Source: a virus. Taken from it: a stretch of 25,380 nt of DNA. The stretch is taken from UHGV virus genome UHGV-0112510. One strand, written 5' to 3'. Within the stretch, counting starts at the first letter, position 1; each line of letters opens with the position of its first letter. The translations under genes were made by a program, and so were the position numbers. The notes under the pieces are model-generated. The model was not told where the DNA came from. It did not search any database and saw only the letters and a program-made list of their open reading frames with translations. Below, one piece after another: positions 11,782 through 25,380 of the stretch.

Positions 11782-11782
11782 T

Positions 11783-13981
11783 ATGGCAGAAAAAAAGATG
11801 ACTGACTGGCATCGCAAGGTGCTGTGCAACTTTGATAATGCCTGGTCAGCAACGCAGGATATGCGTGAGCAGATTATTGAGGCTCAACGTTTCGTCCGGG
11901 TATCCGGCGCACAGTGGGAAGGCAGCACAAACGCTGGTTACTCATTTGATGAAGGCAGGTTTGAGCATTACCCGCGCTTTGAACTGAATAAGATTGCCCG
12001 TGAATGTGATCGCATCATTGGCGAGTATCGACAGAATCGCATCAGCGTTAAATTCAGGCCGAAGGATGACAAGGCATCGGAAGCGTTAGCCGAAAAAATG
12101 AACGGCAAATTCCGCGCTGACTATCAGGAAACATCCGGTGGCGAAGCGTGTGATAACGCATTTGATGATGCCGTAACGGGCGGATTCGGTTGTTTCCGCA
12201 TGTGTGCCGATTATGAAGATGAAATGGATCCGAGTAACGAGCAACGCCGTATAAGCCTTCTCCCTGTTTACGACCCAGCGACATGCGTCTTCTTTGATCA
12301 GGACAGCAAGCAATATGACCGCTCTGATGCTATGTGGGCTATGGAAATGTTCTCCATGACGCCTAAAGCGTTCGAGGCTGAATACCCTGATTCCATCGCG
12401 GCAAGCCTTTCTCGAGATGACACTGGCACTCAATATGACTGGTCAACGCCAGATGCCATCTATGTTGGACGCTACTACGAAGTTCGCATAGAGAAGGTGA
12501 AGCTCACGGCGTGGCGCAACCCTGTTAGCGGAGAAACGGCAATCTATGATGAAGAGCAAATCAAAGATGTTGTTGACGAGCTGACCGATGGCGCATTCGA
12601 ACTGATTGGTGAGCGGACAGTGAAGAAACGCCGAGTTTATTGCGGTCTTCTGTCTGGTGCTGAATGGCTGGAAGAGCCGAAGCGTATTCCGGGCGAACAT
12701 ATTCCTCTCATCCCGGTATATGGGCGTCGTTCATTTGTTGATAATCAGGAGCGAATAGAAGGCCACGCAGCAAAAGCGATGGATGCACAGCGTCTTGAGA
12801 ACCTGATGGTTTCCATGATTGCAGATAACGCTACTCAGGCTGGCGGTGATGGCATTCCTGTAGTTGATGTTGACATGATTCCTGGTCCTCTCGCCACTCA
12901 TTGGGCGGAGCGCAACAAAAAGCGCCCGGCGTTCCTGCCGATGGTCAGTCTGAAAAACAAAAACGGAGATATTACTGCGCAGGCTCAGGTCAGCAGTTAT
13001 ACACCTCCGACACAAATGCCTCCAGCTCTTGCCGGGCTATTGCAGTACACCGGAACGGCTATTCAGCAAATTACAGGTGCGTCGCAGCTTGAGAACATGC
13101 CGAGCAACGTCGCTACCGATACCGTTGATAGTATCTTTAACCGGATGGATACGCAGTCCTATATCTACATGGACAACATGGCTAAATCCATGCGTCGCGC
13201 TGGCGTTGTGTGGCTTTCTATGGCGCGTGAGGTCTATGGCAGTGATACGCCGATGCGTATCGTTAATGAGGACGGCAGCGATGACGTGGCGCTGATGACT
13301 GGTGAAGTTGTTGACCGTCAGACAGGGCAGGTTATCGCTCTTAACGACCTTTCGCAGGGTAACTATGAAGTGACTGTCGATGTTGGTCAGTCGTTCGCTA
13401 CTCGCCGTGATGCAACGGTTAAGTCGTTACTTTCCATGCTGGCACTTATCCCACCAGGAACGCCGAAGCACGACCTTGTATCGTCGATGATTCTCGACAA
13501 TATGGACGGCGAAGGGATGGACGACCTTAAAGAATACAACCGCAATCAGTTGCTTCTGTCTGGAGTTATCAAGCCGAGAACACCAGAAGAACAGCAGATG
13601 GTTGAGCAGGCGAAACAACAACAGGCCAGTCAGCCGGATCCGGCTATGGTTGCAGCGCAAGGTCAGCTTCTGGCTGGTCAGGCTGAATTGCAGAAAGCGC
13701 AGAACGAACAGGCAGCCATTCAGGTTAAAGCATTCCAGGCACAGACTGATGCTCAGGTTGCTGCGGCAAATGTTGTGAAAATCCTCGCATCTGCCGATAG
13801 CCAGCAGAAATCTGATATCCGCGAGGCTCTGAAACTGCTCGGACAGTTCCAGCAACAGCAAGGAGACAATGCCCGTGCTGATGCAGAGCTTGTCCTGAAG
13901 AGTCAGGCGCAGGGCCATGCGCAGAGCATGGACATCAACAGCATCCTGCAAAAATCAACTCAGCAACAACCACAGCAGTAA
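11783..13981 (+). CDS. portal protein (P22 gp1-like)
   Basis: 732 aa; blocks shared with the P22 portal from memory (KKRRVY, EHIPLIPVYG, DPAMVAAQGQLLAGQAELQKAQNEQ); Gln-rich C-terminal helical barrel region. Confidence 0.95.
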   Translation: MAEKKMTDWHRKVLCNFDNAWSATQDMREQIIEAQRFVRVSGAQWEGSTNAGYSFDEGRFEHYPRFELNKIARECDRIIGEYRQNRISVKFRPKDDKASEALAEKMNGKFRADYQETSGGEACDNAFDDAVTGGFGCFRMCADYEDEMDPSNEQRRISLLPVYDPATCVFFDQDSKQYDRSDAMWAMEMFSMTPKAFEAEYPDSIAASLSRDDTGTQYDWSTPDAIYVGRYYEVRIEKVKLTAWRNPVSGETAIYDEEQIKDVVDELTDGAFELIGERTVKKRRVYCGLLSGAEWLEEPKRIPGEHIPLIPVYGRRSFVDNQERIEGHAAKAMDAQRLENLMVSMIADNATQAGGDGIPVVDVDMIPGPLATHWAERNKKRPAFLPMVSLKNKNGDITAQAQVSSYTPPTQMPPALAGLLQYTGTAIQQITGASQLENMPSNVATDTVDSIFNRMDTQSYIYMDNMAKSMRRAGVVWLSMAREVYGSDTPMRIVNEDGSDDVALMTGEVVDRQTGQVIALNDLSQGNYEVTVDVGQSFATRRDATVKSLLSMLALIPPGTPKHDLVSSMILDNMDGEGMDDLKEYNRNQLLLSGVIKPRTPEEQQMVEQAKQQQASQPDPAMVAAQGQLLAGQAELQKAQNEQAAIQVKAFQAQTDAQVAAANVVKILASADSQQKSDIREALKLLGQFQQQQGDNARADAELVLKSQAQGHAQSMDINSILQKSTQQQPQQ

Positions 13982-14071
13982 TTAACCCATAACGTGCAAT
14001 GGCTGTCTTTATGAGGCCTGGCACCCTATTGCCTTCCGATGGGCTGAACATCGAGTAAACAGGGGTAACAA

Positions 14072-14968
14072 ATGGACCAGATGGCAGAAAACACACCAGA
14101 AGTTGAAATCGAAACCGACGCGTCAGAGCAGATTCCTGATGATGTCGAACTGTCTGAAGAAGTCGAAACGGAAGATGGCAGTGAGTACTCCGGCAATGAT
14201 GCAGAGGAAGCTACTGAAACTGATGACGACGAATCAGAACAGGAATTCTACTTTGGTGACGAAAAGCTGGATTCGCCAACCAGCGAAGATAGCGCAGAGC
14301 ATGGACTGGTAAAACACCTGCGCAAGACGATTAAAGAGAAAGATCGCGAGCTGAAAGAGCTGATGCGTCAGTCTCAGAAACCCGTCGAGCAGCAGCCGGT
14401 AATCACTCAACCACCGCGAATGCCAAAACTGGATGATGAGGACATCGGTTTCGATGAAGAAATCTATCAGCAACGCATGGCTAAGTGGGCAGAGGATAAC
14501 GGAAAGTACCAGCAACAGGAGATGGCTCGCAAGCAGAAGGAGCAGGAGCTTCAGGCTGCTTATCAAGAGCGATTATCCAAATATCAGCAACGTGTTAAGG
14601 CTCTCAAGGTTCCTGGCTATCAGGAAGCAGAACAGGCCGTACTCGAGGAAATCCCCATCGAGACACAAAACGCGATCCTGTTTGAGTCAGAGAAGCCGGA
14701 AATCGTTGTTCTGGCACTCGGTCGCAACGCTGAACTGCGCAAGCAACTGGCAGAAGCTACCAACCCCGTAGCAATTGGTCGTCTGCTGGAACGTATCGAA
14801 TCGAAGGCCAGAATCATGCCAAAAGCAAAAACCACGGCAGCCACAACCCCGAAAGTTAAGGGGAGCAACGGCGCAGTAATCAATAACCTCGACAAACTTC
14901 TCGAAAAAGCGCGCGAAACCGGTGATTACACCGAATACCGGGCGGCGAAGAACAAAGCTAAAAAATAA
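14072..14968 (+). CDS. scaffolding protein
   Basis: 298 aa, highly acidic N-terminus, coiled-coil middle, basic C-terminal helix-turn-helix-like tail (KNKAKK); sits between portal and coat as in P22 (gp8). Confidence 0.8.
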   Translation: MDQMAENTPEVEIETDASEQIPDDVELSEEVETEDGSEYSGNDAEEATETDDDESEQEFYFGDEKLDSPTSEDSAEHGLVKHLRKTIKEKDRELKELMRQSQKPVEQQPVITQPPRMPKLDDEDIGFDEEIYQQRMAKWAEDNGKYQQQEMARKQKEQELQAAYQERLSKYQQRVKALKVPGYQEAEQAVLEEIPIETQNAILFESEKPEIVVLALGRNAELRKQLAEATNPVAIGRLLERIESKARIMPKAKTTAATTPKVKGSNGAVINNLDKLLEKARETGDYTEYRAAKNKAKK

Positions 14969-14988
14969 TCCATCGGAGCTAAACACCT

Positions 14989-16248
14989 ATGTCTAACCAG
15001 TTAACCAAAGACCTCGAAATCCTCTTTGAGAACGTCATTGATAGTTTTGAGGCGTCTAATGTCGTTTCCAGCGAGTGCAGTAAGTTCCGACCGGGCGACA
15101 CTGAAATGCAGCGCGCTGGCGACGTTGTTTATCGCCCTCAGGGCTACCACCTGAAAACCGTGAGCGGACTTGATCTGACTTCGGCCACTGCAAACTCACT
15201 CGTTCAGCGTCAGGTGCCTGCTCGCTTCCGCGAGCCAGAGAACGTCATCTACGAACTGGACGCAAAAGAAATGCGCGATTCGTGGCACAAAGAGCAGGCT
15301 GGCAAGGCGGCGGGTCGCCAGTTGGCGGCGTGGGTTGATAACATGATCGTCGATGAGGTGGCCTCTCGCTCCACCAACGTGGTCACCATTAAATCGGCGT
15401 CCACCGGTAACACTCTCGGCGAAGAACTCTGGAACGCATCGGCTGAAGTTGATGCAATGATGCTGTCCATTGGTGTGCCTCAGGGTGGTCAGCGCAAGGC
15501 GTTCTACAACCCGTTCAACTACAAAGACCTGGCTAAGGAGCTTGGCTCTCGCGCATATGCGGTCGGTAAAACTCTGACAGCCTATGAGAAAGCTCAGATT
15601 CCACCTGTGGCATCCTTCGATAGTTTCCGCGTTGATTATGCTGGCGCAATGAAGGCTGGTTCAGCTACCGAAGTAACGCTCAACGGCGCAGTAGCACATA
15701 AAGTTACCGCGATGGATTCCAACGGCGCGCCTACCGATAACCGCCAGGGTGACATCACCGTATCCGTTGCTGACGTACTGGCTGTCGGCGATGCATTCAC
15801 TATCGCAGGCGTTAACAGTGTCCACATGATCAAGAAGGTGGATACAGGTAAGCCGCAGGTATTCCGCGTCCTGGCAGTAAATGGCACTACCGTTACCATC
15901 AGCCCGAAAATTCTGCCACCAGACAACAAGGATAATGCGTCTATTCCTTACCAGAACGTTACCGCCAATCCGGCGGAAAACGCGGCGATCACCATCCTCA
16001 ACAAGAAGGCTGCGGCTTCCAACATCTTCTTCGCTGAGGGTTCTGTTGAGCTGATGTATGGCAAGTTGGCATTCCCTACCGGCCAGGGTCCGCAGGTTAT
16101 GACCGCAACGACCGAGCAGGGTGCGACCATCATCATGGCTTACCAGTTCGACGCTAAATCTGGCAAAACGTGGACTCGCTTCACCACGCTGGCTGGCGCA
16201 AGCGTACTGGTCCCGGAATTCACCGGCCTGGTACTGGCTAACCAGTAA
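14989..16248 (+). CDS. major capsid (coat) protein, P22 gp5-like
   Basis: 419 aa; position after scaffold; followed by a very strong terminator, typical of major capsid genes. Confidence 0.9.
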   Translation: MSNQLTKDLEILFENVIDSFEASNVVSSECSKFRPGDTEMQRAGDVVYRPQGYHLKTVSGLDLTSATANSLVQRQVPARFREPENVIYELDAKEMRDSWHKEQAGKAAGRQLAAWVDNMIVDEVASRSTNVVTIKSASTGNTLGEELWNASAEVDAMMLSIGVPQGGQRKAFYNPFNYKDLAKELGSRAYAVGKTLTAYEKAQIPPVASFDSFRVDYAGAMKAGSATEVTLNGAVAHKVTAMDSNGAPTDNRQGDITVSVADVLAVGDAFTIAGVNSVHMIKKVDTGKPQVFRVLAVNGTTVTISPKILPPDNKDNASIPYQNVTANPAENAAITILNKKAAASNIFFAEGSVELMYGKLAFPTGQGPQVMTATTEQGATIIMAYQFDAKSGKTWTRFTTLAGASVLVPEFTGLVLANQ

Positions 16249-16252
16249 TCCA

Positions 16253-16278
16253 AGGGGCTTCGGCCCCTCTTTTTTTTT
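16253..16278 (+). terminator. strong rho-independent terminator after the coat gene
   Basis: AGGGGC-TTCG-GCCCCT (UUCG tetraloop) followed by a run of 8 T (16271-16278). Confidence 0.7.
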
Positions 16279-16288
16279 GGAGATCGAA

Positions 16289-16477
16289 ATGTCTCAAATC
16301 ATGCTTTATAAGCCGGGCTCGATGATCACCTGCGGGCCCCACTCGCTGGATTACATCATTGTTGATGACGAAGAAGTTAAATCTCACCTGAAAAAAGGCT
16401 GGGTAAAAACTCCTGAAGAAACCGCAACGAAGCAAAAAGTGGCTAAGGCGGAAGAAGATGGCGAAAACGAAGGGTGA
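16289..16477 (+). CDS. small hypothetical protein (62 aa) between coat and head-completion genes
   Basis: ATG at 16289 with GGAG at 16279-16282; MSQIMLYKPGSMITCGPHSLDYIIVDDEEVKSHLKKGWVKTPEETATKQKVAKAEEDGENEG; overlaps the next gene start. Confidence 0.45.
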   Translation: MSQIMLYKPGSMITCGPHSLDYIIVDDEEVKSHLKKGWVKTPEETATKQKVAKAEEDGENEG

Positions 16478-16919
16478 TCTCGTTCTAAAGGCTTTACGAA
16501 AAGCCGGGCTGTATTCCAATGCCACGTTGACGGATGCTGACCCTCAGGCAATTGAAGATGCCATTAATGACCTCGAAGACATGATGGCAGCATGGCGGGC
16601 GAAAGGTATCGAGCTTGGATATCAGTTTGCTGATACAGAAAACGGCATCATGCCGTTACCTGACGATGATTCAGGTATCCCCGCATGGGCAAATGATGGT
16701 GTCGCTTTGAAACTCGCTGTGCAGGTGTGCATGGATAACGTCATTCAGCCGTCAGACGCTCTCCTTACCGCTGCTGACAGTGCATATCAGACAATCTGCA
16801 TCGCTTTAACCAAAATACCACCACTTGAGCGGCGAAATGACATGCCTCGCGGTAGTGGTAACAAAAGCGCGTTTACGTGGAATCGGTTTTACATCGAGAA
16901 AGATGATCCGAGTACGTGA
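16458..16919 (+). CDS. head completion / tail accessory protein, P22 gp4-like
   Basis: 153 aa; gene order and size as P22 gp4. Confidence 0.7.
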   Translation: MAKTKGDLVLKALRKAGLYSNATLTDADPQAIEDAINDLEDMMAAWRAKGIELGYQFADTENGIMPLPDDDSGIPAWANDGVALKLAVQVCMDNVIQPSDALLTAADSAYQTICIALTKIPPLERRNDMPRGSGNKSAFTWNRFYIEKDDPST

Positions 16920-16928
16920 GGTGAATAA

Positions 16929-18347
16929 ATGCCGATTCAGCAACTTCCGCTTATGAAAGGTGTCGGCAAAGACTTCCGAAATGCCGACTATATCGACTAT
17001 CTGCCAGTGAATATGTTGGCTACACCCAAAGAAATCCTGAACAGCAGCGGATATCTTCGCTCATTCCCGGGCATTGCAAAACGTTCTGATGTGAACGGTG
17101 TATCTCGCGGTGTCGAGTACAACATGGCGCAGAATGCTGTTTATCGTGTGTGTGGTGGCAAGCTGTACAAAGGCGAAAGTGAAGTCGGTGATGTTGCCGG
17201 AAGTGGTCGCGTATCAATGGCGCATGGTCGGACATCACAGGCGGTAGGCGTTAATGGTCAACTGGTCGAGTATCGCTATGATGGCACGGTTAAAACCGTC
17301 TCAAACTGGCCTACGGACAGCGGATTCACGCAGTATGAGTTAGGTTCTGTTCGCGACATTACTCGCTTACGTGGGCGTTATGCGTGGTCAAAAGATGGTA
17401 CTGATTCATGGTTCATCACTGACCTTGAAGACGAATCACATCCTGACCGCTACAGTGCACAATATCGTGCCGAGTCTCAGCCGGACGGCATCATCGGAAT
17501 CGGAACATGGCGAGACTTCATCGTCTGCTTTGGTTCATCGACGATTGAATATTTCTCCCTGACTGGTGCAACCACCGTTGGTGCCGCTTTGTATGTCGCC
17601 CAGCCATCGTTGATGGTGCAAAAAGGAATCGCCGGAACCTACTGCAAAACGCCGTTTGCTGATTCTTATGCGTTCATCAGCAATCCTGCAACAGGTGCGC
17701 CGTCTGTGTACATCATCGGATCCGGTCAGGTGTCACCAATCGCCAGCGCGAGCATTGAGAAAATCCTCCGCTCCTACACTGCTGATGAACTGGCTGATGG
17801 CGTGATGGAATCGCTGCGGTTTGATGCGCATGAGTTGCTGATTATCCACCTTCCGCGCCATGTTCTCGTGTACGACGCATCTTCAAGCGCCAATGGTCCG
17901 CAATGGTGTGTGCTGAAAACAGGCCTGTATGACCATGTGTACCGCGCTATCGACTTCATTTACGAAGGCAATCAGATAACGTGCGGCGATAAGCTGGAAT
18001 CCGTGACCGGGAAATTGCAGTTCGATATCAGCAGCCAGTACGACAAGCAGCAGGAACACCTGCTGTTTACTCCGTTGTTCAAAGCGGATAACGCCAGAGT
18101 TTTCGACCTTGAAGTTGAATCTTCAACTGGAGTTGCGCAGTATGCTGACCGCCTTTTTCTCTCTGCAACCACTGACGGCATCAATTACGGGCGTGAGCAG
18201 ATGATTGAGCAGAATGAACCGTTCGTTTATGACAAACGTGTTTTGTGGAAGCGAGTCGGGCGCATCAGGAAAAATGTCGGCTTCAAATTGCGCGTTATCA
18301 CGAAGTCACCTGTCACTCTGTCTGGCGCTCAGATAAGGATTGAGTAA
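16929..18347 (+). CDS. head completion / tail hub protein, P22 gp10-like
   Basis: 472 aa, same length as P22 gp10 as recalled; conserved gene order. Confidence 0.8.
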
Positions 18348-19153
18348 TGGCGGATTCGAATCTCAATGTGCCGGTAATCATTCAGGCTACACAGCTCGAC
18401 ACATCAGTCCTTCCACGCAATATCTTCTCGCAGTCGTATCTGCTTTACGTTATCGCACAGGGCACTGATGTTGGTAACGTGGCTAACAAGGCCAACGAGG
18501 CCGGACAGGGCGCTTATGATGCACAGGTTAGGAACGATGAGCAGGATGTGATTCTCGCTGACCATGAGCAGCGAATCAGCCAGGCAGAATCAACTCTTCA
18601 GGAACATGAAACACGAATAGCTCAGAATGAAAGCGATATTGCGTCGCTTGATACCAGAGTTCAGTCGCTCGAATCGCAGGTTTCAGACCATGAAACGCGC
18701 ATCGATGCTCTGGAGTATGCCACTACTCGCAAGAAGTCAGAGGTTGTTTACTCTGGCGTATCTGTAACCATCCCGACAGCGCCGACCAACCTTGTTAGCC
18801 TGCTGAAAACGCTCACGCCGTCATCCGGCACGTTGGCACCATTCTTCGACACCGTTAACAACAAGATGGTTGTGTTCAACGAGAACAAAACCTTGTTCTT
18901 CAAGCTGTCGATCGTCGGGACGTGGCCCAGCGGAACCGCCAACAGGTCAATGCAGCTAACCTTTTCCGGCTCTGTTCCTGACACACTGGTAAGCAGTCGC
19001 AACTCGGCGACAACAACCGACAACATCCTGTTAGCTACGTTCTTCAGCGTGGATAAAGACGGCTTTCTTGCCACAAATGGCAGTACGTTAACCATTCAGT
19101 CGAATGGTGCGGCGTTTACTGCCACAACCATCAAGATAATCGCGGAGCAGTGA
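18347..19153 (+). CDS. tail needle protein, P22 gp26-like, with a C-terminal knob-type extension
   Basis: N-terminus [43 protein letters not shown]... matches the P22 gp26 N-terminus from memory; heptad coiled coil ([37 protein letters not shown]); distinct ~140-aa C-terminal domain. Confidence 0.85.
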
Positions 19154-19608
19154 TGATTACATTCAAACCAACGCGAAACATCGACCTGATAGAAGCAGTC
19201 GGAAATCACCCTGACATTATCGCCGGGAGCAACAACGGTGATGGATACTACTACAAACCTGAATGCCGTTACTTTGAGGTGAACGTGCACGGTCAGTTTG
19301 GCGGCATTGTTTACTATCAGGAGATTCAGCCGCTGACATTCGATTGCCACGCCATGTACCTGCCAGAGATTCGCGGCTTCAGCAAGGAAATTGGGCTGGC
19401 GTTCTGGCGATACATTCTGACTAACACCACCGTTCAGTGCGTAACATCGTTCGCTGCACGCAAATTCCGACACGGTCAGATGTACTGCGCAATGATTGGC
19501 CTTAAGCGTGTAGGAACCATCAAGAAATACTTCAAAGGCGTGGATGACGTGACTTTTTACAGCGCCACACGCGAAGAACTAATCGACTTCCTGAATCACG
19601 GGAGATAG
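19153..19608 (+). CDS. P22 gp14-like head assembly/ejection-associated protein
   Basis: 151 aa from the ATG at 19153 (ORF-track start 19150 is a GTG); position between needle and ejection proteins. Confidence 0.6.
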   Translation: MITFKPTRNIDLIEAVGNHPDIIAGSNNGDGYYYKPECRYFEVNVHGQFGGIVYYQEIQPLTFDCHAMYLPEIRGFSKEIGLAFWRYILTNTTVQCVTSFAARKFRHGQMYCAMIGLKRVGTIKKYFKGVDDVTFYSATREELIDFLNHGR

Positions 19609-19610: not shown

Positions 19611-20303
19611 ATGTTATATGCATTTAAGCTGGGCAGAAAACTGCGCGGCGAGGAACCTTATTGCCCTGAAAAAGGCGGGAAAGGTGGCAGTTCTGATAAA
19701 AGCGCAAAGTATGCAGCAGAAGCCCAGAAGTATGCAGCAGACCTGCAAAATCAGCAGTGGCAGACGATCATGAAAAACCTTGCTCCGTTCACGCCTCTTG
19801 CGGAGCAGTATGTTAACCAGCTTCAGAACCTTTCCAGTTTAGAAGGTCAGGGGCAGGCACTTAATCAGTATTACAACTCTCAGCAGTATAAAGACCTTGC
19901 AGGGCAGGCGCGTTACCAGAGTCTTGCTGCTGCGGAGGCGACGGGTGGACTTGGTTCGACAGCCACAAGCAATCAACTGGCTACGATCGCGCCGACACTC
20001 GGTCAGTCTTGGTTATCAAATCAGATGAGCAATTACAACAATCTGGCAAACGTTGGGCTTGGTGCGCTGCAAGGTCAGGCAAACGCCGGGCAGACGTACG
20101 CCAACAACATGAGCAGCATTGCACAGCAAAGCGCAGCTCTTGCCGCTGCTAATGCCAATAAACCATCAAGTCTTCAGACTGCAATTAGCGGTGGCACGTC
20201 TGGTGCGATTGCCGGTGCAGGTCTTGCCAGCCTTTTGGGAACATCAACGCCTTGGGGCGCTGGCATTGGTGCTGGTATCGGATTGCTTGGCTCGTTGTTT
20301 TAA
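19611..20303 (+). CDS. ejection (injection) protein, P22 gp7-like
   Basis: 230 aa, MLYAFKLGRKLRGEEPYCPEKGGKGGSSDKSAKYAAE...; Gln/Ala/Gly-rich; Gly-rich hydrophobic C-terminus. Confidence 0.8.
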   Translation: MLYAFKLGRKLRGEEPYCPEKGGKGGSSDKSAKYAAEAQKYAADLQNQQWQTIMKNLAPFTPLAEQYVNQLQNLSSLEGQGQALNQYYNSQQYKDLAGQARYQSLAAAEATGGLGSTATSNQLATIAPTLGQSWLSNQMSNYNNLANVGLGALQGQANAGQTYANNMSSIAQQSAALAAANANKPSSLQTAISGGTSGAIAGAGLASLLGTSTPWGAGIGAGIGLLGSLF

Positions 20304-20312
20304 GGGGTAATC

Positions 20313-21668
20313 ATGGCTACTTGGCAAGGAACAAACGGCGGATTGTTGGCTGGTATCGGCGGCGTCAACTCAAACGCTCCGAGCGTAAATGACATCGGCA
20401 ATACGCTTCAGCTTATCAGGCAGAACAATGATATTGAGCGTTCAGGCGCTAACAATGTTGGACTGACGGCCTTGCAAGGTCTTTCAGGTATTGCGGGTGT
20501 TTTTCAGCAGGAAAAGCAGGCTCAGCGGCAGAAAGAATTTCAGCAGGCATACGCTAATGCTTATGCGTCTGGTGATCGCGGTGCTTTGCGTCAGTTGGCT
20601 ACTCAATATCCAGACCAGATTGAATCCGTTCGTAAAGGCATGGGATTCATTGATGAAGACCAGCGTAATTCTATCGGTACATTAGCGGCTGGCGCTCGTC
20701 TTGCGGCATCGTCTCCAGAAGCAATGCAATCATGGCTGCAAAATAACGCCAAGGAACTGACTCGCGTCGGTGTTGACCCTAATAACGTTGCTCAGATGTA
20801 TCAGCAGAATCCTTCAGGATTTGGTGAGTTTGTTGATCACCTTGGAATGGCTGCTCTTGGTCCGATTGATTACTTCAATGTTCAGGACAAGATGGCTGGT
20901 CGTGAGATTGATCGCGGAAAACTTGCAGAGACAATCCGCAGCAATCAGGCTGGCGAGGTGCTAACAGCACGAGGTCAGAACATCACGATGCGCGGCCAGG
21001 ATTTATCGATGCAGAGAGCATCAATGAAAGGGTCGGTTGGGAATAATGAGCGTACAGTTCAGTTAGCAGATGGCAGAACTGTAACGGTAGGCGGGAAGCT
21101 TCACGGCGCTGGGGCTAATGCGTTCTACGAAGGTATCGACAACGAGGGGAATATGGTTCGCGTTCCTGCCAGTTCAATCGCTGCTCCTGCAACATCGTCT
21201 GCATCAGCACAAAACTATGCCATGAAGAAGGATATCGACGCGATCGCAAATGCAGACGCTTCTGCTCTCGATTTCATGACAGGAATGACAGGCGGTGCAG
21301 GTAATCCAGCAATTGGTGCTGATGTTCGCAGCCGATTAACGGGAAAAGAGCAGCGCCAGTTATATAACTCAGCACAACGTATTCAGGGCAGAATGCAGAA
21401 TCAGGGTGTGGCGGCAGCAAGGGACATGGGTGCCAGTGGTATTAACACCGTTGCAGAAGCGAAGATGTATTTTCAGGGGATGCCGCAGGTTGACTATTCA
21501 AGCCCGGAGGCTATGCAGCAGTCGATTCGTGAGATTCAGGAATACACCAACAATTACAACCAACAATATAACGTTAATGTTGGTAAATCTCAGCGGAAGC
21601 AATCTCAACCTGCACAGGTATCACAGCCAGCAGCCAGCAGTAACTTTTCTTCACTATGGGGTGATTAA
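20313..21668 (+). CDS. ejection protein, P22 gp20-like
   Basis: 451 aa; order and composition consistent with gp20. Confidence 0.75.
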
Positions 21669-23773
21669 TGGCTAAAGCATGGAAAGATGTTATCGCCTCT
21701 CCACAGTATCAGGCGTTAGCACCAGAACAAAAAGCGCAGGCTCAGGAGCAATACTTCAATGAAGTCGTTGCCCCGCAAGCCGGAGAAAGTGTAGAGCAGG
21801 CTAAGCAGGCTTTTTATGCTGCCTATCCACTACCATCAACGAATGAAATAGACCGATCCCAATCAGCAACTCAAAATATTCAACATACATCATCTGATAA
21901 TTCTCTTGCGTCAGGGTATGCAAAGTTAGCTACTCAGCAAAGAGAGGGGCTTGAGCGTTCAGCAGAACAGGGAGCCAGTCTTGGGGCTGCGATGCGCGAT
22001 GCTATAACAGGCGAAAGCCGAATGACTCCAGAGATGGAGAGACTGCAAAATGTCACCTCTGCCCCAGAATTGAACTCACTAAGCATGGATGCCCTAAAGG
22101 CTGGATGGTCTCAACTTTTCGGCTCTGACGCGTCTCAGGAAAAGATTCTTCAGGGAATGGGGGCGACATTAAGGCAGGATGAGAAGGGGAATACTATCGT
22201 TTCTCTGCCATCAGGTGATTATGCCCTGAACAAGCCGGGTTTATCACCGCAAGACCTGACTTCGTTTCTTGCTAATGCGTTGGCGTTTACACCAGTGGGC
22301 AGGGCTGGAACGGTGCTTGGTGCCATAGGAAAATCAGCAGCTACAGATTTAGCACTACAGGGAGCCACCAGCCTTGCTGGTGGAGAAGATATTGATCCGT
22401 TACAAACGGTAATTTCTGCTGGCATTGGTGGTATTGGTAAGGGGCTGGAAAATACAGCGAGTGCGGTTTCGAGGGCTGTTCGTGGTGATATGTCGCCTGA
22501 AGCAAAGGCTGCTGTCGACTTTGCATCGGAAAGAAATCTGCCGTTAATGACCAGTGACATGCTGAAAGATAAAACCTTTATGCAGAGTCAGGCTCAGACA
22601 TTAGGCGAAAGAGTTCCTTTTTTTGGAACCGGTAAGAATCGGCTGAATCAACAACAAGCACGAGAAAATTTAGTCAGAACATTTAGCGATGGTCTGGGTG
22701 GCATTTCTGATAAACAGCTTTATGAATCTGCGACTAAAGGGCAACAAAAATTCATTGAGGCAGCAGGAAAGCGATATAACCGCATAATTGACGCTATGGG
22801 GGATACCCCTGTCGATCTCTCAAACACGGTAAAAGCTATCGACAATCAGATTGCCGTGTTAAGCCGCCCGGGCAAATCTCAGGATAGAGCCGCGGTAAAA
22901 GTCTTGCAGCAATTTAAAGACGATATCACCAGCGGACCAAATGACCTGCGTCTGGCGAGGGAAAACAGAACCGATCTTCGAAAGCGATTTATGGCGTCAT
23001 CTGACACTGTTGATAAAGATACGCTCCAGAAAGCCAGCGATATTATCTACAAGGCATATACGGCGGATATGAAAAAAGCCGTAGCCAAAAATCTTGGAGC
23101 AGACGAAGCCATTAATATGGCAAGGGTTGATCGCTCATGGTCTAAATTCAATGACATGATGGGAAGAACGCGCGTTCAAAAGGCAATAGCCAGCGGCAAG
23201 GCCACGCCTGAGGATGTAACAAAACTCGTTTTTAGCCAAAGCCCATCAGAACGTTCTCAGCTTTACAGGCTTCTGGATGACAATGGTAGGCAAAACGCAC
23301 GAGCAGCCATAGTTCAGAATGCTGTAGATAAGGCGACTGATCCGTCTGGAAATATCAGTGTTGAGAAGTTTATTAATGCGTTACACCGGAACAGGAAGCA
23401 ATCAGCAACTTTCTTTAAAGGCGTACATGGAAAGGAACTGGACGGCGTTATTAAATACCTCAACGATACAAGACACGCGGCAAAAGCGAACGTTCAAAAC
23501 TTAAATGGTCAGCAGCTTTATGGATTGTTAGTTGGTGGTGGCATCATAAACGCAGCAGTATTAGCGGGGATGCTAAAAACGGCTGCGTTTGTTGTTCCTG
23601 CTGCTGGTGCCGTAGGCGGAGCAGCGAAGGCATACGAAAGCCCTGTTATACGAAATGCCTTGTTACGTCTGGCAAATACGCCAAAAGGTAGCACAGCATA
23701 TGACAGAGCGATCAGTACGGTCACACAATCGCTCACCAGAGTCGCACAGGCATCACAAAAAGAAGCTCAATAA
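21668..23773 (+). CDS. ejection protein, P22 gp16-like
   Basis: 701 aa; last of three consecutive ejection-protein genes; hydrophobic Gly/Ala-rich segment near the C-terminus (LLVGGGIINAAVLAGMLKTAAFVVPAAGAVGGAA). Confidence 0.75.
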   Translation: MAKAWKDVIASPQYQALAPEQKAQAQEQYFNEVVAPQAGESVEQAKQAFYAAYPLPSTNEIDRSQSATQNIQHTSSDNSLASGYAKLATQQREGLERSAEQGASLGAAMRDAITGESRMTPEMERLQNVTSAPELNSLSMDALKAGWSQLFGSDASQEKILQGMGATLRQDEKGNTIVSLPSGDYALNKPGLSPQDLTSFLANALAFTPVGRAGTVLGAIGKSAATDLALQGATSLAGGEDIDPLQTVISAGIGGIGKGLENTASAVSRAVRGDMSPEAKAAVDFASERNLPLMTSDMLKDKTFMQSQAQTLGERVPFFGTGKNRLNQQQARENLVRTFSDGLGGISDKQLYESATKGQQKFIEAAGKRYNRIIDAMGDTPVDLSNTVKAIDNQIAVLSRPGKSQDRAAVKVLQQFKDDITSGPNDLRLARENRTDLRKRFMASSDTVDKDTLQKASDIIYKAYTADMKKAVAKNLGADEAINMARVDRSWSKFNDMMGRTRVQKAIASGKATPEDVTKLVFSQSPSERSQLYRLLDDNGRQNARAAIVQNAVDKATDPSGNISVEKFINALHRNRKQSATFFKGVHGKELDGVIKYLNDTRHAAKANVQNLNGQQLYGLLVGGGIINAAVLAGMLKTAAFVVPAAGAVGGAAKAYESPVIRNALLRLANTPKGSTAYDRAISTVTQSLTRVAQASQKEAQ

Positions 23774-23777
23774 CTGG

Positions 23778-23800
23778 TTAGCCATGGATGGCTAATTTTT
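23778..23800 (+). terminator. terminator hairpin at the convergence of gp16-like and the minus-strand membrane gene
   Basis: TTAGCC-ATGGAT-GGCTAA followed by TTTTT (23796-23800). Confidence 0.5.
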
Positions 23801-24211
23801 GTTCTTTGCTCTCATCCATAGGTAAAGAAGGGAAAGAACAAGACAAAAAACAGAGAATAGATAACCTACCTCATATGGTGCGCCAAAAAAATTAGCTATT
23901 GATACGGGCAAAAAAGCTGACGCGATCAAAATTGAAAGGCAAAAAATAAGCCCAGTAATATAGTTTATTAAATTCTTAAATGAGAAACGTTTTGCTTGAT
24001 TTACGGTCTTAACGAACGATCGCTTAACGACGGATAAAAGCAAATAGATGGCGACAGTTGCTAATGCCCCTTTCCACCAGTCTGGATATAGTTTTGCGAC
24101 AATCAGACCAAGGAAAACCATGATGACAGCCTGAGCATTCACACCAACCCTCCCTTTAGCTTTGTTTAGAATGGCAATCATCATATATCCAAGACATGGC
24201 ATTTGGTACAT
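23792..24211 (-). CDS. small integral membrane protein (4 predicted TM helices), moron; possible superinfection-exclusion type function
   Basis: 139-aa minus-strand ORF, convergent with the structural operon; locally AT-rich; four hydrophobic segments; basic C-terminus; no recognised homolog. Confidence 0.7.
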   Translation of the reverse strand: MYQMPCLGYMMIAILNKAKGRVGVNAQAVIMVFLGLIVAKLYPDWWKGALATVAIYLLLSVVKRSFVKTVNQAKRFSFKNLINYITGLIFCLSILIASAFLPVSIANFFGAPYEVGYLFSVFCLVLSLLYLWMRAKNKN

Positions 24212-24335
24212 AGCTTGGGTCGGGATTTCAAATCCGATCCCCGTTGATGGGGCCGTTACAGTACGCGCATATCCGCTTTATGTGAAACAGGAAGATTTTT
24301 CTGATATCACTGCCACAGCAAAACACCAATTTCGA

Positions 24336-24351
24336 GACAAGTACGCGCGCG
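24336..24351. repeat. 16-bp direct repeat copy 1 (GACAAGTACGCGCGCG)
   Basis: Exact match to 24623-24638; a partial third copy (CAGTACGCGCA) lies near 24260-24272. Confidence 0.6.
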
Positions 24352-24361
24352 AGGGGTATCA

Positions 24362-24381
24362 GTTGCAAAAAATTTTGCAAC
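24362..24381. promoter_or_regulatory. perfect 20-bp palindrome GTTGCAAAAAATTTTGCAAC (candidate dimeric protein binding site)
   Basis: 9-bp arms GTTGCAAAA/TTTTGCAAC with a 2-bp centre; 11 bp downstream of direct repeat copy 1. Confidence 0.3.
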
Positions 24382-24622
24382 TACGTCCGACCAGTATGCA
24401 CACGATGGCGGGGGGATACCATAAAACTGTTCTCTACATGAGACAGAGTGGTGGTGATGTGTTGATTATCGGCGTATATGCGCACAGGACGCGCTATGAC
24501 GATGTTTTATGCGGGTACACCAATCACATGTATCTGGTGTGATAAATCGCGTTACATGACCTCTCATGTTGTACTGGTGGTTATCACGACGTTCTGAATC
24601 TGGCCTTTGCCTGGTATTTTGC

Positions 24623-24638
24623 GACAAGTACGCGCGCG
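24623..24638. repeat. 16-bp direct repeat copy 2 (GACAAGTACGCGCGCG)
   Basis: Exact copy of 24336-24351, 287 bp away; flanking context also similar (TTCGA / TTGC before GACAAG). Confidence 0.6.
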
Positions 24639-24984
24639 TAGCATCGAAATAATCGGATGGCGTATGCTGCTGGTAATATGAAGACCGATAGCATTAACCG
24701 TAAGGAGAAAGACTTCTCGATAACGGCAAGGGGGCTGAATTGCGAGGCGAGATTAAGCAACTGTCTTGAACGTAAAAATCATGGAGCAACATGATGGTAC
24801 GATTCATTCCATTCTTCGTTCTTTCTGAGCATTGCGTTCAGGCTTAGTCAAAATTAGTGTTGCGAGCGGACCTATTAGTAATTGTTGGTGCGATGCGTCT
24901 GTTATGGATTGTTATGGTTGTGGCAGGCCTGATTAATATCCAGTATGACCACCAGCTATGAGAGGCCACCTCAGTGGTTCGCAG

Positions 24985-25040
24985 TTGCAGGTTTGCACTC
25001 AGGTTCGCAGGGTTTTGGCTACTTTCACGTGCGAACCTGC
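24985..25040. other. long imperfect hairpin / inverted repeat in apparently non-coding DNA
   Basis: TGCAGGTTTGCAC (24985-24997) pairs with GTGCGAACCTGCA (25028-25040), 13 bp with one G-U; 30-nt loop containing a further GGTTCGCAG repeat; no adjacent T-tract on either strand. Confidence 0.35.
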
Positions 25041-25175
25041 AGAATTGCAAAGGACAACTAAGTCCTCTGGCCAACTCCCGGTTTATGAGCGACACAGTCC
25101 GCCTGGCGCATCGTTTTCGTCGAGTGCGCCCATCAGCTTGTCCATGGACTATCCACCACTCGATATTAAAGCTAA

Positions 25176-25361
25176 TCATTGGTTGCCAGCCCGCGAATCA
25201 AGTTTGTTCTGGATCCAAGCTTCAACCTCCTCAAGCGACCATCTAGCTGATCTACCAATTTTAACTGGCTGTGGAAACGTGCCCGTCTTAACCCATGAGT
25301 AGATTGCCGTTTTCTTGAAGCCCGTTCTGAGCATGACTTCGCTTAATTTGATAAGGCGCAT
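25176..25361 (-). CDS. alpA: AlpA-family transcriptional regulator / excisionase-like DNA-binding protein
   Basis: 61 aa, MRLIKLSEVMLRTGFKKTAIYSWVKTGTFPQPVKIGRSARWSLEEVEAWIQ...; canonical AlpA/Vis-type winged HTH signature; RBS AGAGGAG upstream on the minus strand (plus coords ~25366-25372). Confidence 0.85.
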   Translation of the reverse strand: MRLIKLSEVMLRTGFKKTAIYSWVKTGTFPQPVKIGRSARWSLEEVEAWIQNKLDSRAGNQ

Positions 25362-25380
25362 AGAGGCTCCTCTGCTTTAG

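What the first reader, a model, noticed from the sequence alone, without database searches (positions are those of the whole stretch)
24212..25175. About 1 kb of repeat-rich, structured, apparently non-coding DNA between the membrane moron and the AlpA gene
No convincing ORF is present, yet the region is highly organised. It has two exact 16-bp direct repeats (24336-24351 and 24623-24638) 287 bp apart, a perfect 20-bp palindrome at 24362-24381, CGCGCGCG runs, and a 13-bp-stem long hairpin at 24985-25040. It lies where a P22/Sf6-type genome would carry the tailspike or immI genes. It could be a structured ncRNA, an operator/recombination site for the adjacent AlpA-type regulator, or a scar left by module replacement (direct repeats flanking a small insertion).
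Basis: seen in the sequence. Interest (0 to 1): 0.55.

Follow-up and report, generated by a model that had tools for sequence, protein, structure and literature searches.

The report
Terminase relics in a satellite island
This 'non-coding' kilobase is the unannotated spacer of a known kind of phage-parasite island (an EcCIMP1-type PICI), built from leftovers of small-terminase genes, an insertion-sequence stump and an excisionase-binding attachment-site remnant; its repeated 16-mer copies a stretch of the helper phage's small-terminase gene and may be the island's still unknown packaging signal.

Summary
In detail: two exact 16-mers, a 10+2+10 inverted repeat, CG runs, a 12/13-bp hairpin and no conserved ORF. 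The stretch is not one structured element but a patchwork. Window 24217-25380 is 98.4% identical to the unannotated gap of EcCIMP1, a validated E. coli phage satellite whose packaging mechanism is unknown. The parts are:
1. A block (24143-24647) kept in 545 of 5426 E. coli genomes between changing cargo genes. It holds small-terminase (terS) fragments: a P22-pac-like box and three copies of an 18-22-nt box.
2. A Terminase_2-type terS pseudogene fragment.
3. The last 22 codons of an IS110 transposase.
4. A non-coding element fixed to the AlpA_1-type excisionase gene, with four GGTTYGCA boxes (TorI-type GTTCG cores) and an 80-nt core that elsewhere sits at prophage junctions.

The box matches the window's own terS, and that of the helper phage Kapi1, at 17/18 bases.

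Best reading: gene relics, with the terS-derived boxes retained as a candidate pac region and the right third as an excisionase-binding att arm. No evidence supports an ncRNA. Unexpectedly, the same about 30-nt box occurs alone, often in direct copies, in integrase/primase islands across phyla. This is unexplained.

The parts
23792..24211 (-). Context: membrane-protein ORF (139 aa; RefSeq calls 23792-24181) at the position and orientation of P22 sieA, directly after the gp16-type ejection gene
   Evidence: ORF list. Annotated as hypothetical in RefSeq. P22 has sieA(-) right after gene 16. No family hit. It is replaced by other genes in L087, L015 and L006, while its first codons, down to about 24143, are kept.
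24143..24647 (+). 'Region A': a conserved block without a conserved ORF, flanked on both sides by variable cargo
   Evidence: Present in 545 of 5426 complete E. coli genomes at 95-100% identity, mostly unannotated. The left and right neighbours differ between genomes. Indels of 1, 2 and 53 nt break every long frame. Substitutions show no coding bias.
24243..24325 (+). Fragment resembling the pac-containing middle of P22 gene 3 (terS). It includes the pac-like box GAAGATTTTTCTGATATCACTG at 24291-24312
   Evidence: Local alignment to P22 gene 3 nt 226-302 scores 38, against shuffles with mean 24.3 and maximum 38. The box matches 16/22 of the annotated P22 pac and 11/12 of the 12-bp consensus AAGATTTATCTG. 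Relatives L091 and L092 carry 20/22 and 19/22 (29/32 with the following bases in L091).
24330..24351 (+). Box R1, TTTCGAGACAAGTACGCGCGCG.
   Evidence: 17/18 identical to the window's own terS (10112-10129) and to Kapi1 terS 18875-18892. Local alignment exceeds 499/500 shuffles. BLASTP gives AKHEDFRDKYAK vs AKHQ-FRDKYAR, 9/12. Differences from the own terS are mostly at third codon positions.
24361..24382 (.). Inverted repeat AGTTGCAAAA-AA-TTTTGCAACT, inside a 53-bp unit bounded by R1 and R1'
   Evidence: RNA z-score is -2.6 / -2.9. The whole 53-bp unit is absent in L111 and in proteins P0003/P0004, and the arms are altered in L109 and L087.
24389..24404 (+). Box R1', a degenerate copy (GACCAGTATGCACACG) 53 bp after R1
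   Evidence: Better preserved in relatives (GACCAGTACGCGCACG in L005 and L110).
24617..24638 (+). Box R2, TTTTGCGACAAGTACGCGCGCG.
   Evidence: Local alignment to the own terS exceeds 500/500 shuffles. It shares about 45 nt with the third copy downstream of the PerC gene outside the window.
24657..24753 (+). Pseudogene fragment of a Terminase_2-type small terminase (about 32 codons with one frameshift), cut off by the IS110 stump
   Evidence: BLASTN of 24659-24730 to a cyanophage terS gene: 80.8% over 73 nt, E 3e-8 in 2.3 Gb. That gene is Pfam Terminase_2, E 2e-14. The frameshift-corrected translation is 53% identical over 53 aa. A 36-aa ORF here is named 'phage terminase small sub...' by JGI. 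Relatives are cut at 24647, 24683, 24703 or 24730 instead.
24754..24850 (-). Stump of an IS110-family insertion sequence: the last 22 codons of the transposase (24782-24847), the stop codon (24779-24781) and the IS end (24754-24778)
   Evidence: 94-96% identical to the 3' ends of IS110-family transposase genes in more than 2000 E. coli genomes. The translation LNAMLRKNEEWNESYHHVAP* equals the C-terminus of the L003 transposase.
24851..25175 (-). 'C-element': a conserved non-coding element joined to the 3' end of the excisionase-like gene. Interpreted as an att-type arm remnant
   Evidence: Found only together with alpA in 153 E. coli genomes. Copies at 68-86% identity occur in other Enterobacteriaceae contigs, both downstream of alpA and between a DUF1233 excisionase gene and an integrase gene. 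It is conserved in all six frames with stops in each.
24871..24949 (-). 80-nt core of the C-element with TAACA(A/G) repeats
   Evidence: 86% identical in L094, L095, L098 and L099, where similarity stops at the same base next to unrelated flanks at a prophage edge. Substitutions are spread evenly over codon positions, 6/10/9. It is not structured (z +0.87).
24976..25037 (.). Four GGTTYGCA boxes: three direct at 24976, 24990 and 25002, and one inverted at 25030.
   Evidence: These are the only four occurrences in the 25,380-nt window. The GTTCG core is the mutated core of TorI binding sites in KplE1 attL (PMC2951348). Kapi1 attP has GGTTCG twice plus GTTCGC once. The inverted arms are kept in 4 relatives without covariation above shuffles.
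25176..25361 (-). Context: the AlpA-family gene, the same protein as EcCIMP1 alpA_1
   Evidence: Pfam Phage_AlpA, E 1.9e-13. RefSeq protein WP_049066248.1 is annotated both in O111 11128 (100% identical DNA) and in the MP1 EcCIMP1 locus. [quoted passage not shown]

Best explanation
The stretch is the unannotated spacer in the right arm of an EcCIMP1-type phage-inducible chromosomal island (PICI). Here that arm is fused, probably through the shared P22-type ejection-protein genes, to a Kapi1-like P22-like prophage that has lost its sieA/immI/tailspike end.

It is not one structured element. It is a patchwork of relics.
- Left half: fragments of small-terminase genes. These are a P22-gene-3-like piece with a pac-like box, three copies of an 18-22-nt box that equals the ...FRDKYA... 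segment of the Sf6-type terS carried by the window's own prophage and by the helper Kapi1, and about 32 codons of a Terminase_2-type terS.
- Middle: the 3' stump of an IS110 element that cut the terS relic.
- Right third: a non-coding att-type arm that travels with the excisionase-like gene alpA_1.

How it most likely works (inferred, not shown):
- The terS-derived boxes, all on the strand of the island's main operon, are kept because they are the site where the helper's Sf6-type small terminase starts headful packaging of the island. The island has no terminase gene of its own.
- The GGTTYGCA boxes are binding sites of the TorI/AlpA_1-type excisionase on a remnant of a phage xis-attP module.

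Sub-confidences:
- Composition and origin of the pieces: about 0.85.
- Right third as an excisionase-binding att arm: about 0.5.
- Boxes as a functional pac region: about 0.35-0.4.

The overall confidence given (0.6) is for the statement taken as a whole, weighted towards the composition.
For: Identity of the locus
- Window 24217-25380 is 98.4% identical to the gap between a hypothetical gene and alpA_1 in the MP1 EcCIMP1 locus.
- The window is 92-97% identical to Kapi1 over 804-19155, and 98.7% identical to the E. coli 042 island arm from 21606 onward.

terS origin of the boxes
- The boxes match the own terS and Kapi1 terS at 17/18. They are the three best hits of the Kapi1 terS region against the whole 29.5-kb EcCIMP1 locus, all to the same 18 bases.
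- Each box region exceeds 499-500 of 500 shuffles, while control segments do not.
- The peptide match is 9/12, and differences are at third codon positions.
- The P22 pac-like box matches 16/22 here and 20/22 in relatives.
- The Terminase_2 fragment is supported.

Selection on the block
- It is kept at 95-100% identity in 545 genomes while the cargo on both sides is exchanged. It is also kept between islands whose ejection genes have diverged beyond megablast detection.

Need for a packaging site
- EcCIMP1 is specifically transduced by Kapi1, Kapi1 does not transduce a chromosomal marker, and no terminase or packaging signal was identified (PMC11773190).

Precedent
- TerS-less PICIs share the helper's cos region (PMC10111431).
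- P22 pac lies inside its terS gene.

Right third
- GGTTYGCA occurs four times in the window, all within 62 bp.
- TorI sites have a GTTCG core, and Kapi1 Xis is identical to TorI.
- AlpA_1 can substitute for Kapi1 Xis.
- The xis-then-att-then-int order is seen in Kapi1 and in L091.
- Junction behaviour of the core is seen in L094-L099.

IS110 stump.
Against: Against the pac reading
- No experiment places packaging initiation here.
- The nucleotide position of the Sf6-type pac site is not available to me. I recall only that Leavitt et al. 2013 place it within the part of gene 1 that encodes the DNA-binding domain, and I could not read that paper.
- The boxes differ from the helper terS after TACGCG (CGCGCG vs AAGGCA).
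- The P22-type box has only 16/22 matches and breaks one position of the published pseudo-pac pattern.
- TerS-pac binding is weak and hard to show even for P22.
- High conservation of region A could reflect recent spread by recombination rather than selection.
- About 210 bp of region A (24405-24615) remain unassigned.

Against the att-arm reading
- No integrase gene and no host junction lie next to the C-element in the window.
- Only four to eight diverged copies exist.
- The AlpA_1 binding motif has not been determined.

Other
- Whether the boxes derive from an Sf6-type or a Terminase_2-type terS N-terminal region is not settled. A Haemophilus Terminase_2-like protein starts ...QFAKAYARMGN.
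Confidence: 0.6

Rival explanations
1. Pure debris. All pieces are decaying leftovers of past recombination, IS insertion and deletion in a defective prophage/island composite. They have no present function, and the repeats are several unrelated scars of terS genes.
For: - Frameshifts, stops and truncations occur in every piece.
- Breakpoints to the right of R2 differ between genomes: 24647, 24683, 24703, 24730, 24753.
- The window prophage lacks tailspike and immI.
- The 53-bp unit with the palindrome is dispensable in L111.
Against: - Region A is retained nearly intact in 524 of 546 records while its neighbours are replaced.
- The relics cover the same about 30-nt terS segment again and again, rather than random parts of the gene.
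- The same box occurs alone in many unrelated islands.
- EcCIMP1, which carries this stretch, is a working satellite.
Confidence: 0.3
2. The boxes are recombination sites: the cores of att sites, or anchors for cassette exchange, where cargo modules are swapped. They are not packaging signals.
For: - R2 lies 10-115 bp left of every cargo breakpoint, and a further copy lies beyond the PerC gene.
- Copies are direct repeats.
- In Haemophilus L155 two exact copies lie 7.1 kb apart around a primase island.
- Many loci with the box encode P4-type integrases.
Against: - Breakpoints are not at a fixed base relative to the box.
- The right-hand cargo boundary is at the equivalent of 25878, not at the third copy.
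- The proven EcCIMP1 att core is TCCTATTATC in tRNA-Thr.
- No terS 3' part follows any copy, as an integration into terS would leave.
Confidence: 0.1
3. The stretch encodes one or more structured regulatory RNAs.
For: - Two local inverted repeats fold better than shuffles, with z from -2.6 to -3.7.
- The C-element is conserved without coding potential.
Against: - There is no Rfam match at E<=1.
- No promoter-like or terminator-like site lies inside 24212-25175.
- The conserved 80-nt core (z +0.87) and the R2 region (z +2.3) are not structured.
- Hairpin pairs show no covariation above shuffles, 441/500.
- The hairpin arms are copies of an 8-mer that also occurs as direct repeats.
Confidence: 0.05
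4. The boxes are iterons of the island's replication origin, bound by the DUF927/D5-type primase-helicase.
For: - Direct repeats occur in islands that encode DUF927 or D5/DUF5906 primases.
- In Haemophilus L150 a degenerate copy lies about 550 bp downstream of the primase gene.
Against: - In EcCIMP1 the boxes lie about 7 kb downstream of the primase gene, beyond the ejection-protein genes. PICI origins are found directly downstream of pri.
- An origin iteron would not be expected to equal a coding segment of phage terS genes in several phyla.
Confidence: 0.05
5. A small protein is encoded after all: the 126-aa ORF 24162-24542, the 33/39-aa ORF ending at 24597, or the 34-aa hydrophobic ORF 24857-24961.
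For: - The ORFs exist.
- Some pipelines call them.
- ATG 24496 has an AGGA 6 nt upstream (read from the sequence).
- 5 of 11 substitutions in the 39-aa ORF are synonymous.
- The 34-aa ORF is hydrophobic.
Against: - There are no family hits in Pfam, NCBIfam, PHROGs or PDB.
- Homologues of the 126-aa ORF change frame.
- The 39-aa ORF suffers a nonsense and a stop-loss change among 19 sequences.
- The hydrophobic ORF lacks a start codon or has stops in relatives, and its substitutions are even over codon positions.
Confidence: 0.05

Closest known systems
EcCIMP1, a PICI of E. coli MP1 mobilised by the P22-like phage vB_EcoP_Kapi1 (Pick, Stadel & Raivio 2025, PMC11773190)
   Same: - The stretch is 98.4% identical to the gap upstream of alpA_1 in EcCIMP1.
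- The downstream proteins are the same: AlpA_1, PerC-family, pRiA4b ORF-3.
- P22-type ejection-protein genes lie upstream.
- The window's terS is 98% identical to that of the helper Kapi1.
   Different: - The window has no island integrase, alpA master regulator or DUF927 primase. A Kapi1-like prophage body takes their place.
- The ejection genes are of the E. coli 042 type, not the MP1 type.
- The paper leaves this gap unannotated and names no packaging signal.
P22 pac site and pseudo-pac sites (22-bp site inside gene 3; 12-bp consensus AAGATTTATCTG; PMC11226127, PMC9611059)
   Same: - It is a short asymmetric site that lies inside the terS coding sequence.
- The window box 24291-24312 shares 16/22 bases (11/12 of the consensus), and relatives share 20/22.
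   Different: - The box is not inside a working terS gene.
- The window's own TerS and Kapi1's TerS are of the Sf6 type, not the P22 type. The P22-type box would therefore serve other helpers, if any.
- No packaging data exist.
TerS-less PICIs that carry the helper's cos region (EcCICFT073; 11capE with a 258-bp segment shared with its helper, PMC10111431)
   Same: It is a satellite without a terminase gene that carries a copy of the helper's packaging-recognition DNA at the end of its packaging module.
   Different: - The helper here is a headful (pac) phage.
- The shared DNA is only 18-22 nt, it is repeated, and it derives from the terS coding sequence.
- Function is not shown.
KplE1/HK620-type attL with TorI (RDF) boxes (Panis et al. 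2010, PMC2951348)
   Same: - Clusters of boxes with a GTTCG core lie next to the recombination module.
- TorI is identical to Kapi1 Xis, and AlpA_1 can replace it.
- The order is the same: excisionase gene followed by the att arm.
   Different: - The boxes here are GGTTYGCA, three direct plus one inverted, with 12-14-bp spacing.
- The IntS arm motif (TAAA) is absent, and TAACA(A/G) repeats are present instead.
- There is no argW core and no integrase in the window.
- Binding has not been tested.
IS110-family insertion sequences of E. coli
   Same: The last 20 residues of the transposase and the IS end are identical or 94-96% identical.
   Different: Only 97 bp remain. There is no catalytic domain and no upstream non-coding end, so nothing functional is left.

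Membership tests
EcCIMP1-type PICI | Nucleotide identity to the reference island over the stretch and its neighbours | tested here: met
   98.4% over 1175 bp. The same RefSeq proteins are found for AlpA_1, PerC-family, the small hypothetical and pRiA4b ORF-3 in genomes identical to the window.
EcCIMP1-type PICI | Island integrase, alpA master regulator and DUF927 primase in the same element | tested here: not met
   The 25-kb window upstream holds Kapi1-like replication, lysis, terminase and head genes instead. Only the island's right arm is present, so the window is a prophage-island hybrid, not a complete PICI.
EcCIMP1-type PICI | Helper-dependent excision, circularisation and transfer | not testable with these tools
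   Shown for EcCIMP1 itself in PMC11773190, not for this hybrid.
pac site of P22-like headful phages | Match to an experimentally defined pac sequence | tested here: inconclusive
   16/22 to P22 pac and 11/12 to the 12-bp consensus, with one position outside the published pseudo-pac pattern. The window-wide chance of such a match is 0.07. Relatives have 20/22.
pac site of P22-like headful phages | Identity to the cognate helper's terS segment that holds its pac site | tested here: inconclusive
   The boxes equal Kapi1 terS 18875-18892 at 17/18 and are the top hits in the island. However, the exact Sf6-type pac position is not known to me.
pac site of P22-like headful phages | Packaging series start near the site; the site is needed and sufficient for transduction | not testable with these tools
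   No packaging data are available.
Small terminase gene (Terminase_2, PF03592) | Profile match of the encoded protein | tested here: not met
   The corrected 51-aa translation gives no Terminase_2 hit.
Small terminase gene (Terminase_2, PF03592) | Significant similarity to a verified family member | tested here: met
   BLASTN E 3e-8 to a cyanophage terS that is Terminase_2 at E 2e-14. The corrected translation is 53% identical at the amino-acid level.
Small terminase gene (Terminase_2, PF03592) | Intact full-length ORF | tested here: not met
   The reading frame has a stop and a frameshift and is cut at 24753 by the IS110 stump. It is therefore a pseudogene fragment.
att-type recombination arm with RDF boxes | Cluster of RDF-type boxes next to an excisionase gene | tested here: met
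   Four GGTTYGCA boxes (GTTCG core) lie 140-200 bp downstream of alpA_1, and nowhere else in the window.
att-type recombination arm with RDF boxes | Sequence ends at a fixed base at element/host junctions | tested here: inconclusive
   In L094/95/98 and L099 the core begins at the same base next to two unrelated flanks. Only two flank types were seen, and no matching empty site was found. The scan of species representatives was empty.
att-type recombination arm with RDF boxes | Adjacent integrase gene | tested here: not met
   There is none in the window. One is present in relative L091, in the order DUF1233 excisionase - element - DUF6979 - integrase.
att-type recombination arm with RDF boxes | Binding by the excisionase or integrase | not testable with these tools
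   This needs EMSA or footprinting.
IS110-family insertion sequence | Transposase sequence | tested here: met
   The C-terminal 20 aa are identical to an annotated IS110-family transposase.
IS110-family insertion sequence | Complete transposase and both ends | tested here: not met
   Only 97 bp are similar. It is a remnant.
Structured non-coding RNA | Match to a curated RNA family | tested here: not met
   There are no Rfam matches at E<=1 on either strand of 23700-25380.
Structured non-coding RNA | Covariation that keeps base pairs | tested here: not met
   The covariation score is 0.100 against a shuffle mean of 0.128, with 441/500 shuffles as high. Only 4 sequences were available, so power is low.

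The most novel reading that the evidence does not exclude
The about 30-nt box (GAG TTT YGN GAC MAG TAC GCG CGC GCG AGG, the DNA that encodes ...EFRDQYARAR... in Sf6-family small terminases) is a free-standing cis-acting packaging signal. Satellites and islands across bacterial phyla carry it, often in two to four direct copies, to be recognised by the small terminase of resident headful phages. If so, the pac site of a large TerS family would be the piece of the terS gene that encodes part of TerS itself. TerS-less pac-type satellites such as EcCIMP1 would then spread by carrying only that piece.
Probability: 0.25. Interest if true: 0.8.

Novelty: new variant of a known kind. Interest (0 to 1): 0.55.

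Why it matters
EcCIMP1-type islands are common in E. coli. The conserved block is in 10% of complete genomes. These islands carry defence and virulence-regulating cargo and are moved by P22-like phages, yet how their DNA is chosen for packaging is unknown.

If the terS-derived boxes are the signal, three things follow:
- A concrete, testable site becomes available.
- An unannotated block that stays constant while its neighbours change would be explained.
- A sequence handle would exist for finding terminase-less satellites of headful phages in other bacteria.

The right third offers candidate binding sites for an excisionase that acts across elements.

If the stretch is only debris, the value is smaller but still real. 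It warns that 'structured non-coding DNA' next to prophage ends can be a pile of gene and IS fragments.

Tried and rejected
- RelE/ParE-like toxin remnant in 24405-24542 (my first impression from ...VLIIGVYAHRTRYD). There is no support in Pfam, NCBIfam, PHROGs or PDB sequences.
- Type I toxin peptide in the 80-nt core (the hydrophobic 34-aa ORF). Relatives lack starts or carry stops, and substitutions are even over codon positions.
- Region A as a diverged inverted copy of the C-element (suggested by short inverted matches I9/I10). Local alignments do not exceed shuffles.
- tRNA-Thr (thrW) att remnants in the window or related loci. None were found with up to 4 mismatches.
- IS110 bridge-RNA region. 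Only the 3' end of the IS is present.
- Homology of the stretch to P22 immI/sieA/tailspike or to any deposited phage. There are no matches beyond the cyanophage terS hit.
- 'R box followed by a terS gene' as a general rule. This is true in the window (as a relic) and in Haemophilus L155, but not in the other loci.
- Search for the C-element core in one genome per species. Zero hits.
- The conceptual terS peptide against 5.8 billion proteins. It returned only one 36-aa E. coli ORF.
- The Leavitt et al. 2013 paper on the Sf6 pac site could not be read.
Full report

Yes.
- The 16-mer GACAAGTACGCGCGCG is exact at 24336-24351 and 24623-24638. Even with two mismatches allowed, only 0.01 matches are expected in the window, and no shuffle gave two. 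The repeat extends to 23 nt.
- The 'perfect 20-bp palindrome' is really two 10-nt arms (24361-24370 / 24373-24382) around a non-symmetric AA.
- The long hairpin has 13-nt arms with 12 complementary positions and a 30-nt loop.
- ORFs of 111-126 aa exist on both strands, but none has a family match in Pfam, NCBIfam or PHROGs. The predicted homologues of the longest one are a set of frameshifted, truncated and indel variants.
- 'Repeat-rich and without a convincing gene' therefore stands.

**2. Where the stretch comes from**

- The window is E. coli chromosome. 24100-25380 is 100% identical to O111:H- 11128 and many other strains.
- The decisive identification came from the literature. Pick et al. 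2025 (PMC11773190) describe EcCIMP1, a 20-kb phage-inducible chromosomal island at tRNA-Thr in E. coli MP1.
  - It has an integrase, an alpA master regulator, a DUF927 primase, P22-like 'DNA transfer' genes, a second oppositely oriented alpA_1 and a PerC-family gene.
  - It is excised and specifically transduced only with the P22-like helper phage Kapi1.
- The MP1 locus shows the same gene order as the window's right end, with a 1.07-kb unannotated gap before alpA_1. Window 24217-25380 is 98.4% identical to that gap plus alpA_1.
- The rest of the window is 92-97% identical to Kapi1 from the replication genes through the tail needle (804-19155). The ejection-protein genes and everything to the right are 98.7% identical to an island arm in E. 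coli 042, which sits behind a TOPRIM/DUF927 primase.
- The window is therefore a hybrid: a Kapi1-like prophage body joined to the right arm of an EcCIMP1-family island.

**3. Anatomy**

*(a) Region A, 24143-24647*
- This block is present in 545 of 5426 complete E. coli genomes at 95-100% identity and is almost never annotated.
- The genes on both sides change.
  - The membrane-protein gene on the left is replaced in several loci, with only its first codons kept.
  - On the right come an Abi gene, an ImmA/IrrE pair, a Doc toxin, other small genes, or the alpA_1 module.
- Within the block, 1-, 2- and 53-nt indels break each long frame. Substitutions show no coding bias in any frame.

*(b) What the repeats are*
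- The extended box TTTYGNGACAAGTACGCG occurs once in the window's own small-terminase gene (10112) and once in Kapi1 terS (18875). The two genes are 422/429 identical and of the Sf6 gp1 type.
- R1 and R2 match that site at 17/18.
- Against the whole 29.5-kb EcCIMP1 locus, the three best hits of the Kapi1 terS region are the three boxes, all to the same 18 bases.
- Each box region beats 499-500 of 500 shuffles in local alignment to terS, and control segments do not.
- In its frame R1 reads AKHQ-FRDKYAR against AKHEDFRDKYAK of TerS. The DNA differences are mostly at third codon positions.
- Just upstream, 24243-24325 aligns with the pac-containing middle of P22 gene 3.
  - It contains GAAGATTTTTCTGATATCACTG, which is 16/22 of the annotated P22 pac and 11/12 of the 12-bp consensus.
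  - Diverged relatives from other Enterobacteriaceae (L091, L092) carry 20/22 and 19/22 next to their own copies of the R box.
- A degenerate copy, R1', follows R1 by 53 bp. The palindrome lies in between, and the whole 53-bp unit is missing in some islands.

*(c) 24657-24753*
- This follows R2 and is a fragment of a Terminase_2-type terS.
- It gave the only phage-database hit of the stretch (E 3e-8), to a gene that is Pfam Terminase_2 at E 2e-14.
- After correcting one frameshift it is 53% identical over 53 residues.
- JGI names a 36-aa ORF here 'phage terminase small sub...'.

*(d) 24754-24850*
- This is the 3' stump of an IS110-family element on the minus strand: 20/20 C-terminal residues, the stop codon and the IS end.
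- It begins exactly where the terS fragment ends.

*(e) 24851-25175, the 'C-element'*
- It is found only with this alpA gene in E. coli (153 genomes).
- It has 68-86% identical copies in metagenomic Enterobacteriaceae contigs, once downstream of alpA and once between a DUF1233 excisionase gene and an integrase gene.
- It is conserved in all six frames with stops in each. Its 80-nt core shows substitutions evenly over codon positions.
- In four other contigs the core begins at the same base next to two unrelated flanks at a prophage edge.
These are the only four in the whole window.

**4. Function**

*The right third*
- TorI, the excisionase of KplE1, binds boxes with a GTTCG core in attL (PMC2951348).
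- Kapi1 Xis is identical to TorI, and AlpA_1 of EcCIMP1 can partly replace it.
- Kapi1's own attP arm has GGTTCG/GTTCGC boxes, and its gene order is xis, attP, int. The same order is seen in L091.
- The C-element is therefore best read as the arm of a phage xis-attP module that travelled with alpA_1, with the boxes as excisionase sites. Binding is inferred, not shown.

*The left half*
- EcCIMP1 has no terminase gene and no identified packaging signal, yet it is transferred specifically by a phage that does not transduce a chromosomal marker.
- P22's pac lies inside its terS gene.
- TerS-less cos-type PICIs carry their helper's cos region.
- The relics here cover the same short terS segment repeatedly, all on the strand of the island operon, inside a block that is kept while its surroundings change.
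- I therefore propose that the boxes are the island's pac region for Sf6-type TerS helpers, and perhaps the P22-type box serves P22-type helpers.
- This is an inference. I could not read the paper that maps the Sf6 pac site, and the boxes differ from terS after TACGCG.

**5. What it is not**

- There is no Rfam match.
- There are no promoter- or terminator-like sites inside the stretch.
- Only the two inverted repeats fold better than shuffles. The conserved core and the box region do not.
- The hairpin shows no covariation.
- Ideas tested and dropped: a RelE/ParE remnant, a type I toxin, a link between region A and the C-element, thrW att remnants and an IS110 bridge-RNA region.

**6. An unexpected extension**

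- A scan of one genome per species with the 22-nt box (about one chance hit expected) returned 54 loci. They come from Proteobacteria, Acidobacteriota, Saccharibacteria, Nitrospinaceae and others.
- Only three hits lie in intact Sf6-family terS genes (...EFRDQYARAREAQ...). Two are coincidences inside a mutase-like gene. Thirty are outside any long open frame.
- The flanks are unrelated, and only about 30 nt are shared.
- Sixteen loci hold two or three copies, mostly direct. Recurrent spacings are about 60 nt or about 820 nt, against one match in all shuffled loci.
- Neighbouring genes include P4-type integrases, DUF927 or D5/DUF5906 primases, a DUF1233 excisionase, toxin-antitoxin pairs and tail genes.
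- In Haemophilus one copy lies 50 nt upstream of a 125-aa Terminase_2-like gene, as R2 does here. This is not general.
- No paper in the library contains the motif.
- This pattern argues that the box itself is under selection in mobile islands. Its role is open: packaging signal, recombination site, or something else.

**7. Verdict**

- The stretch is largely explained as relics in a known island family, so it is not a new kind of element.
- Two points are new and testable: the terS-derived box array as a candidate packaging signal of a terminase-less, pac-type satellite, and the wide standalone distribution of the same box.

Noticed in passing
window 804-19155 vs 19757-25380: The prophage is 92-97% identical to phage Kapi1 up to the tail-needle gene. 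It then switches to ejection-protein genes and a right arm that are 98.7% identical to an island in E. coli 042. No tailspike, immI or integrase gene lies in the window. This looks like a recombinant between a Kapi1-like prophage and an EcCIMP1-family island.
   Followed up: partly
window 23776-23797 and 23783: A terminator-like hairpin lies directly after the gp16-type gene stop. It coincides with the left end of homology to O111:H- 11128, where the core gene ykgL, not a prophage, lies to the left.
   Followed up: no
window 24143-24211 (minus strand): Different leftward cargo genes (in L015, L087, L100, L104, L111, L077) keep the same first codons and upstream DNA as the membrane-protein gene. 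It looks as if new gene bodies were spliced behind one start region.
   Followed up: no
L001 9775-9902 (about 400-520 bp beyond the window end): Direct and inverted GTTGGTTCA iterons lie upstream of the PerC-family gene. The same iterons follow a standalone R box in Serratia L123 and L144. They lie next to the host junction in L091.
   Followed up: no
L001 9514-9691 and 10516-10701: Two paralogous copies (about 70-77% DNA identity) of a 61-aa gene lie 1002 bp apart, one on each side of the PerC gene. Only the second is annotated.
   Followed up: no
slot between window 24647-24753 and the PerC gene, in L005, L007, L015, L109, L110, L111, L113: The cargo here differs from genome to genome: Abi, ImmA/IrrE plus a partner, Doc toxin, an XhlA-like gene plus a ribbon-helix-helix-like gene, or alpA_1 with relics. 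It behaves like a defence or accessory hotspot of the island family.
   Followed up: partly
window 24496-24597 (+): A 33-aa ORF (MTMFYAGTPITCIWCDKSRYMTSHVVLVVITTF) has an AGGA 6 nt upstream. Across 19 sequences it shows 5 synonymous, 4 non-synonymous, 1 nonsense and 1 stop-loss change, which is too few to decide.
   Followed up: partly
L117-L170 (GTDB species representatives): The 22-nt R box occurs in 54 loci across many phyla, mostly outside genes. The flanks are unrelated, and the loci often carry integrase, primase or excisionase genes.
   Followed up: partly
L121 3507/3568, L135 239/298/360, L137 5180/5243, L143 2591/2653: In four unrelated bacteria, copies of the R box are spaced 59-63 nt apart. 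This is close to the 53-nt R1-R1' spacing in the window. The reason for this period is unknown.
   Followed up: no
L155 643-7765 (Haemophilus haemolyticus): Two exact R boxes 7.1 kb apart, in direct orientation, bracket a small island. It encodes a Terminase_2-like gene, AntA and Ash family proteins, a D5/DUF5906 primase and a RelE/MqsA pair.
   Followed up: partly
L091 5990-7560: Two copies of the C-element in the same orientation flank a divergent DUF1233-excisionase / alpA gene pair. They lie next to an integrase at a yeaE-mipA insertion site, beside P22-type ejection genes.
   Followed up: partly
window 24659-24730: The only similarity of the stretch to any deposited phage is 81% over 73 nt to the terS gene of two Leptolyngbya cyanophages. 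That is an unusually distant host range for a nucleotide-level match.
   Followed up: partly
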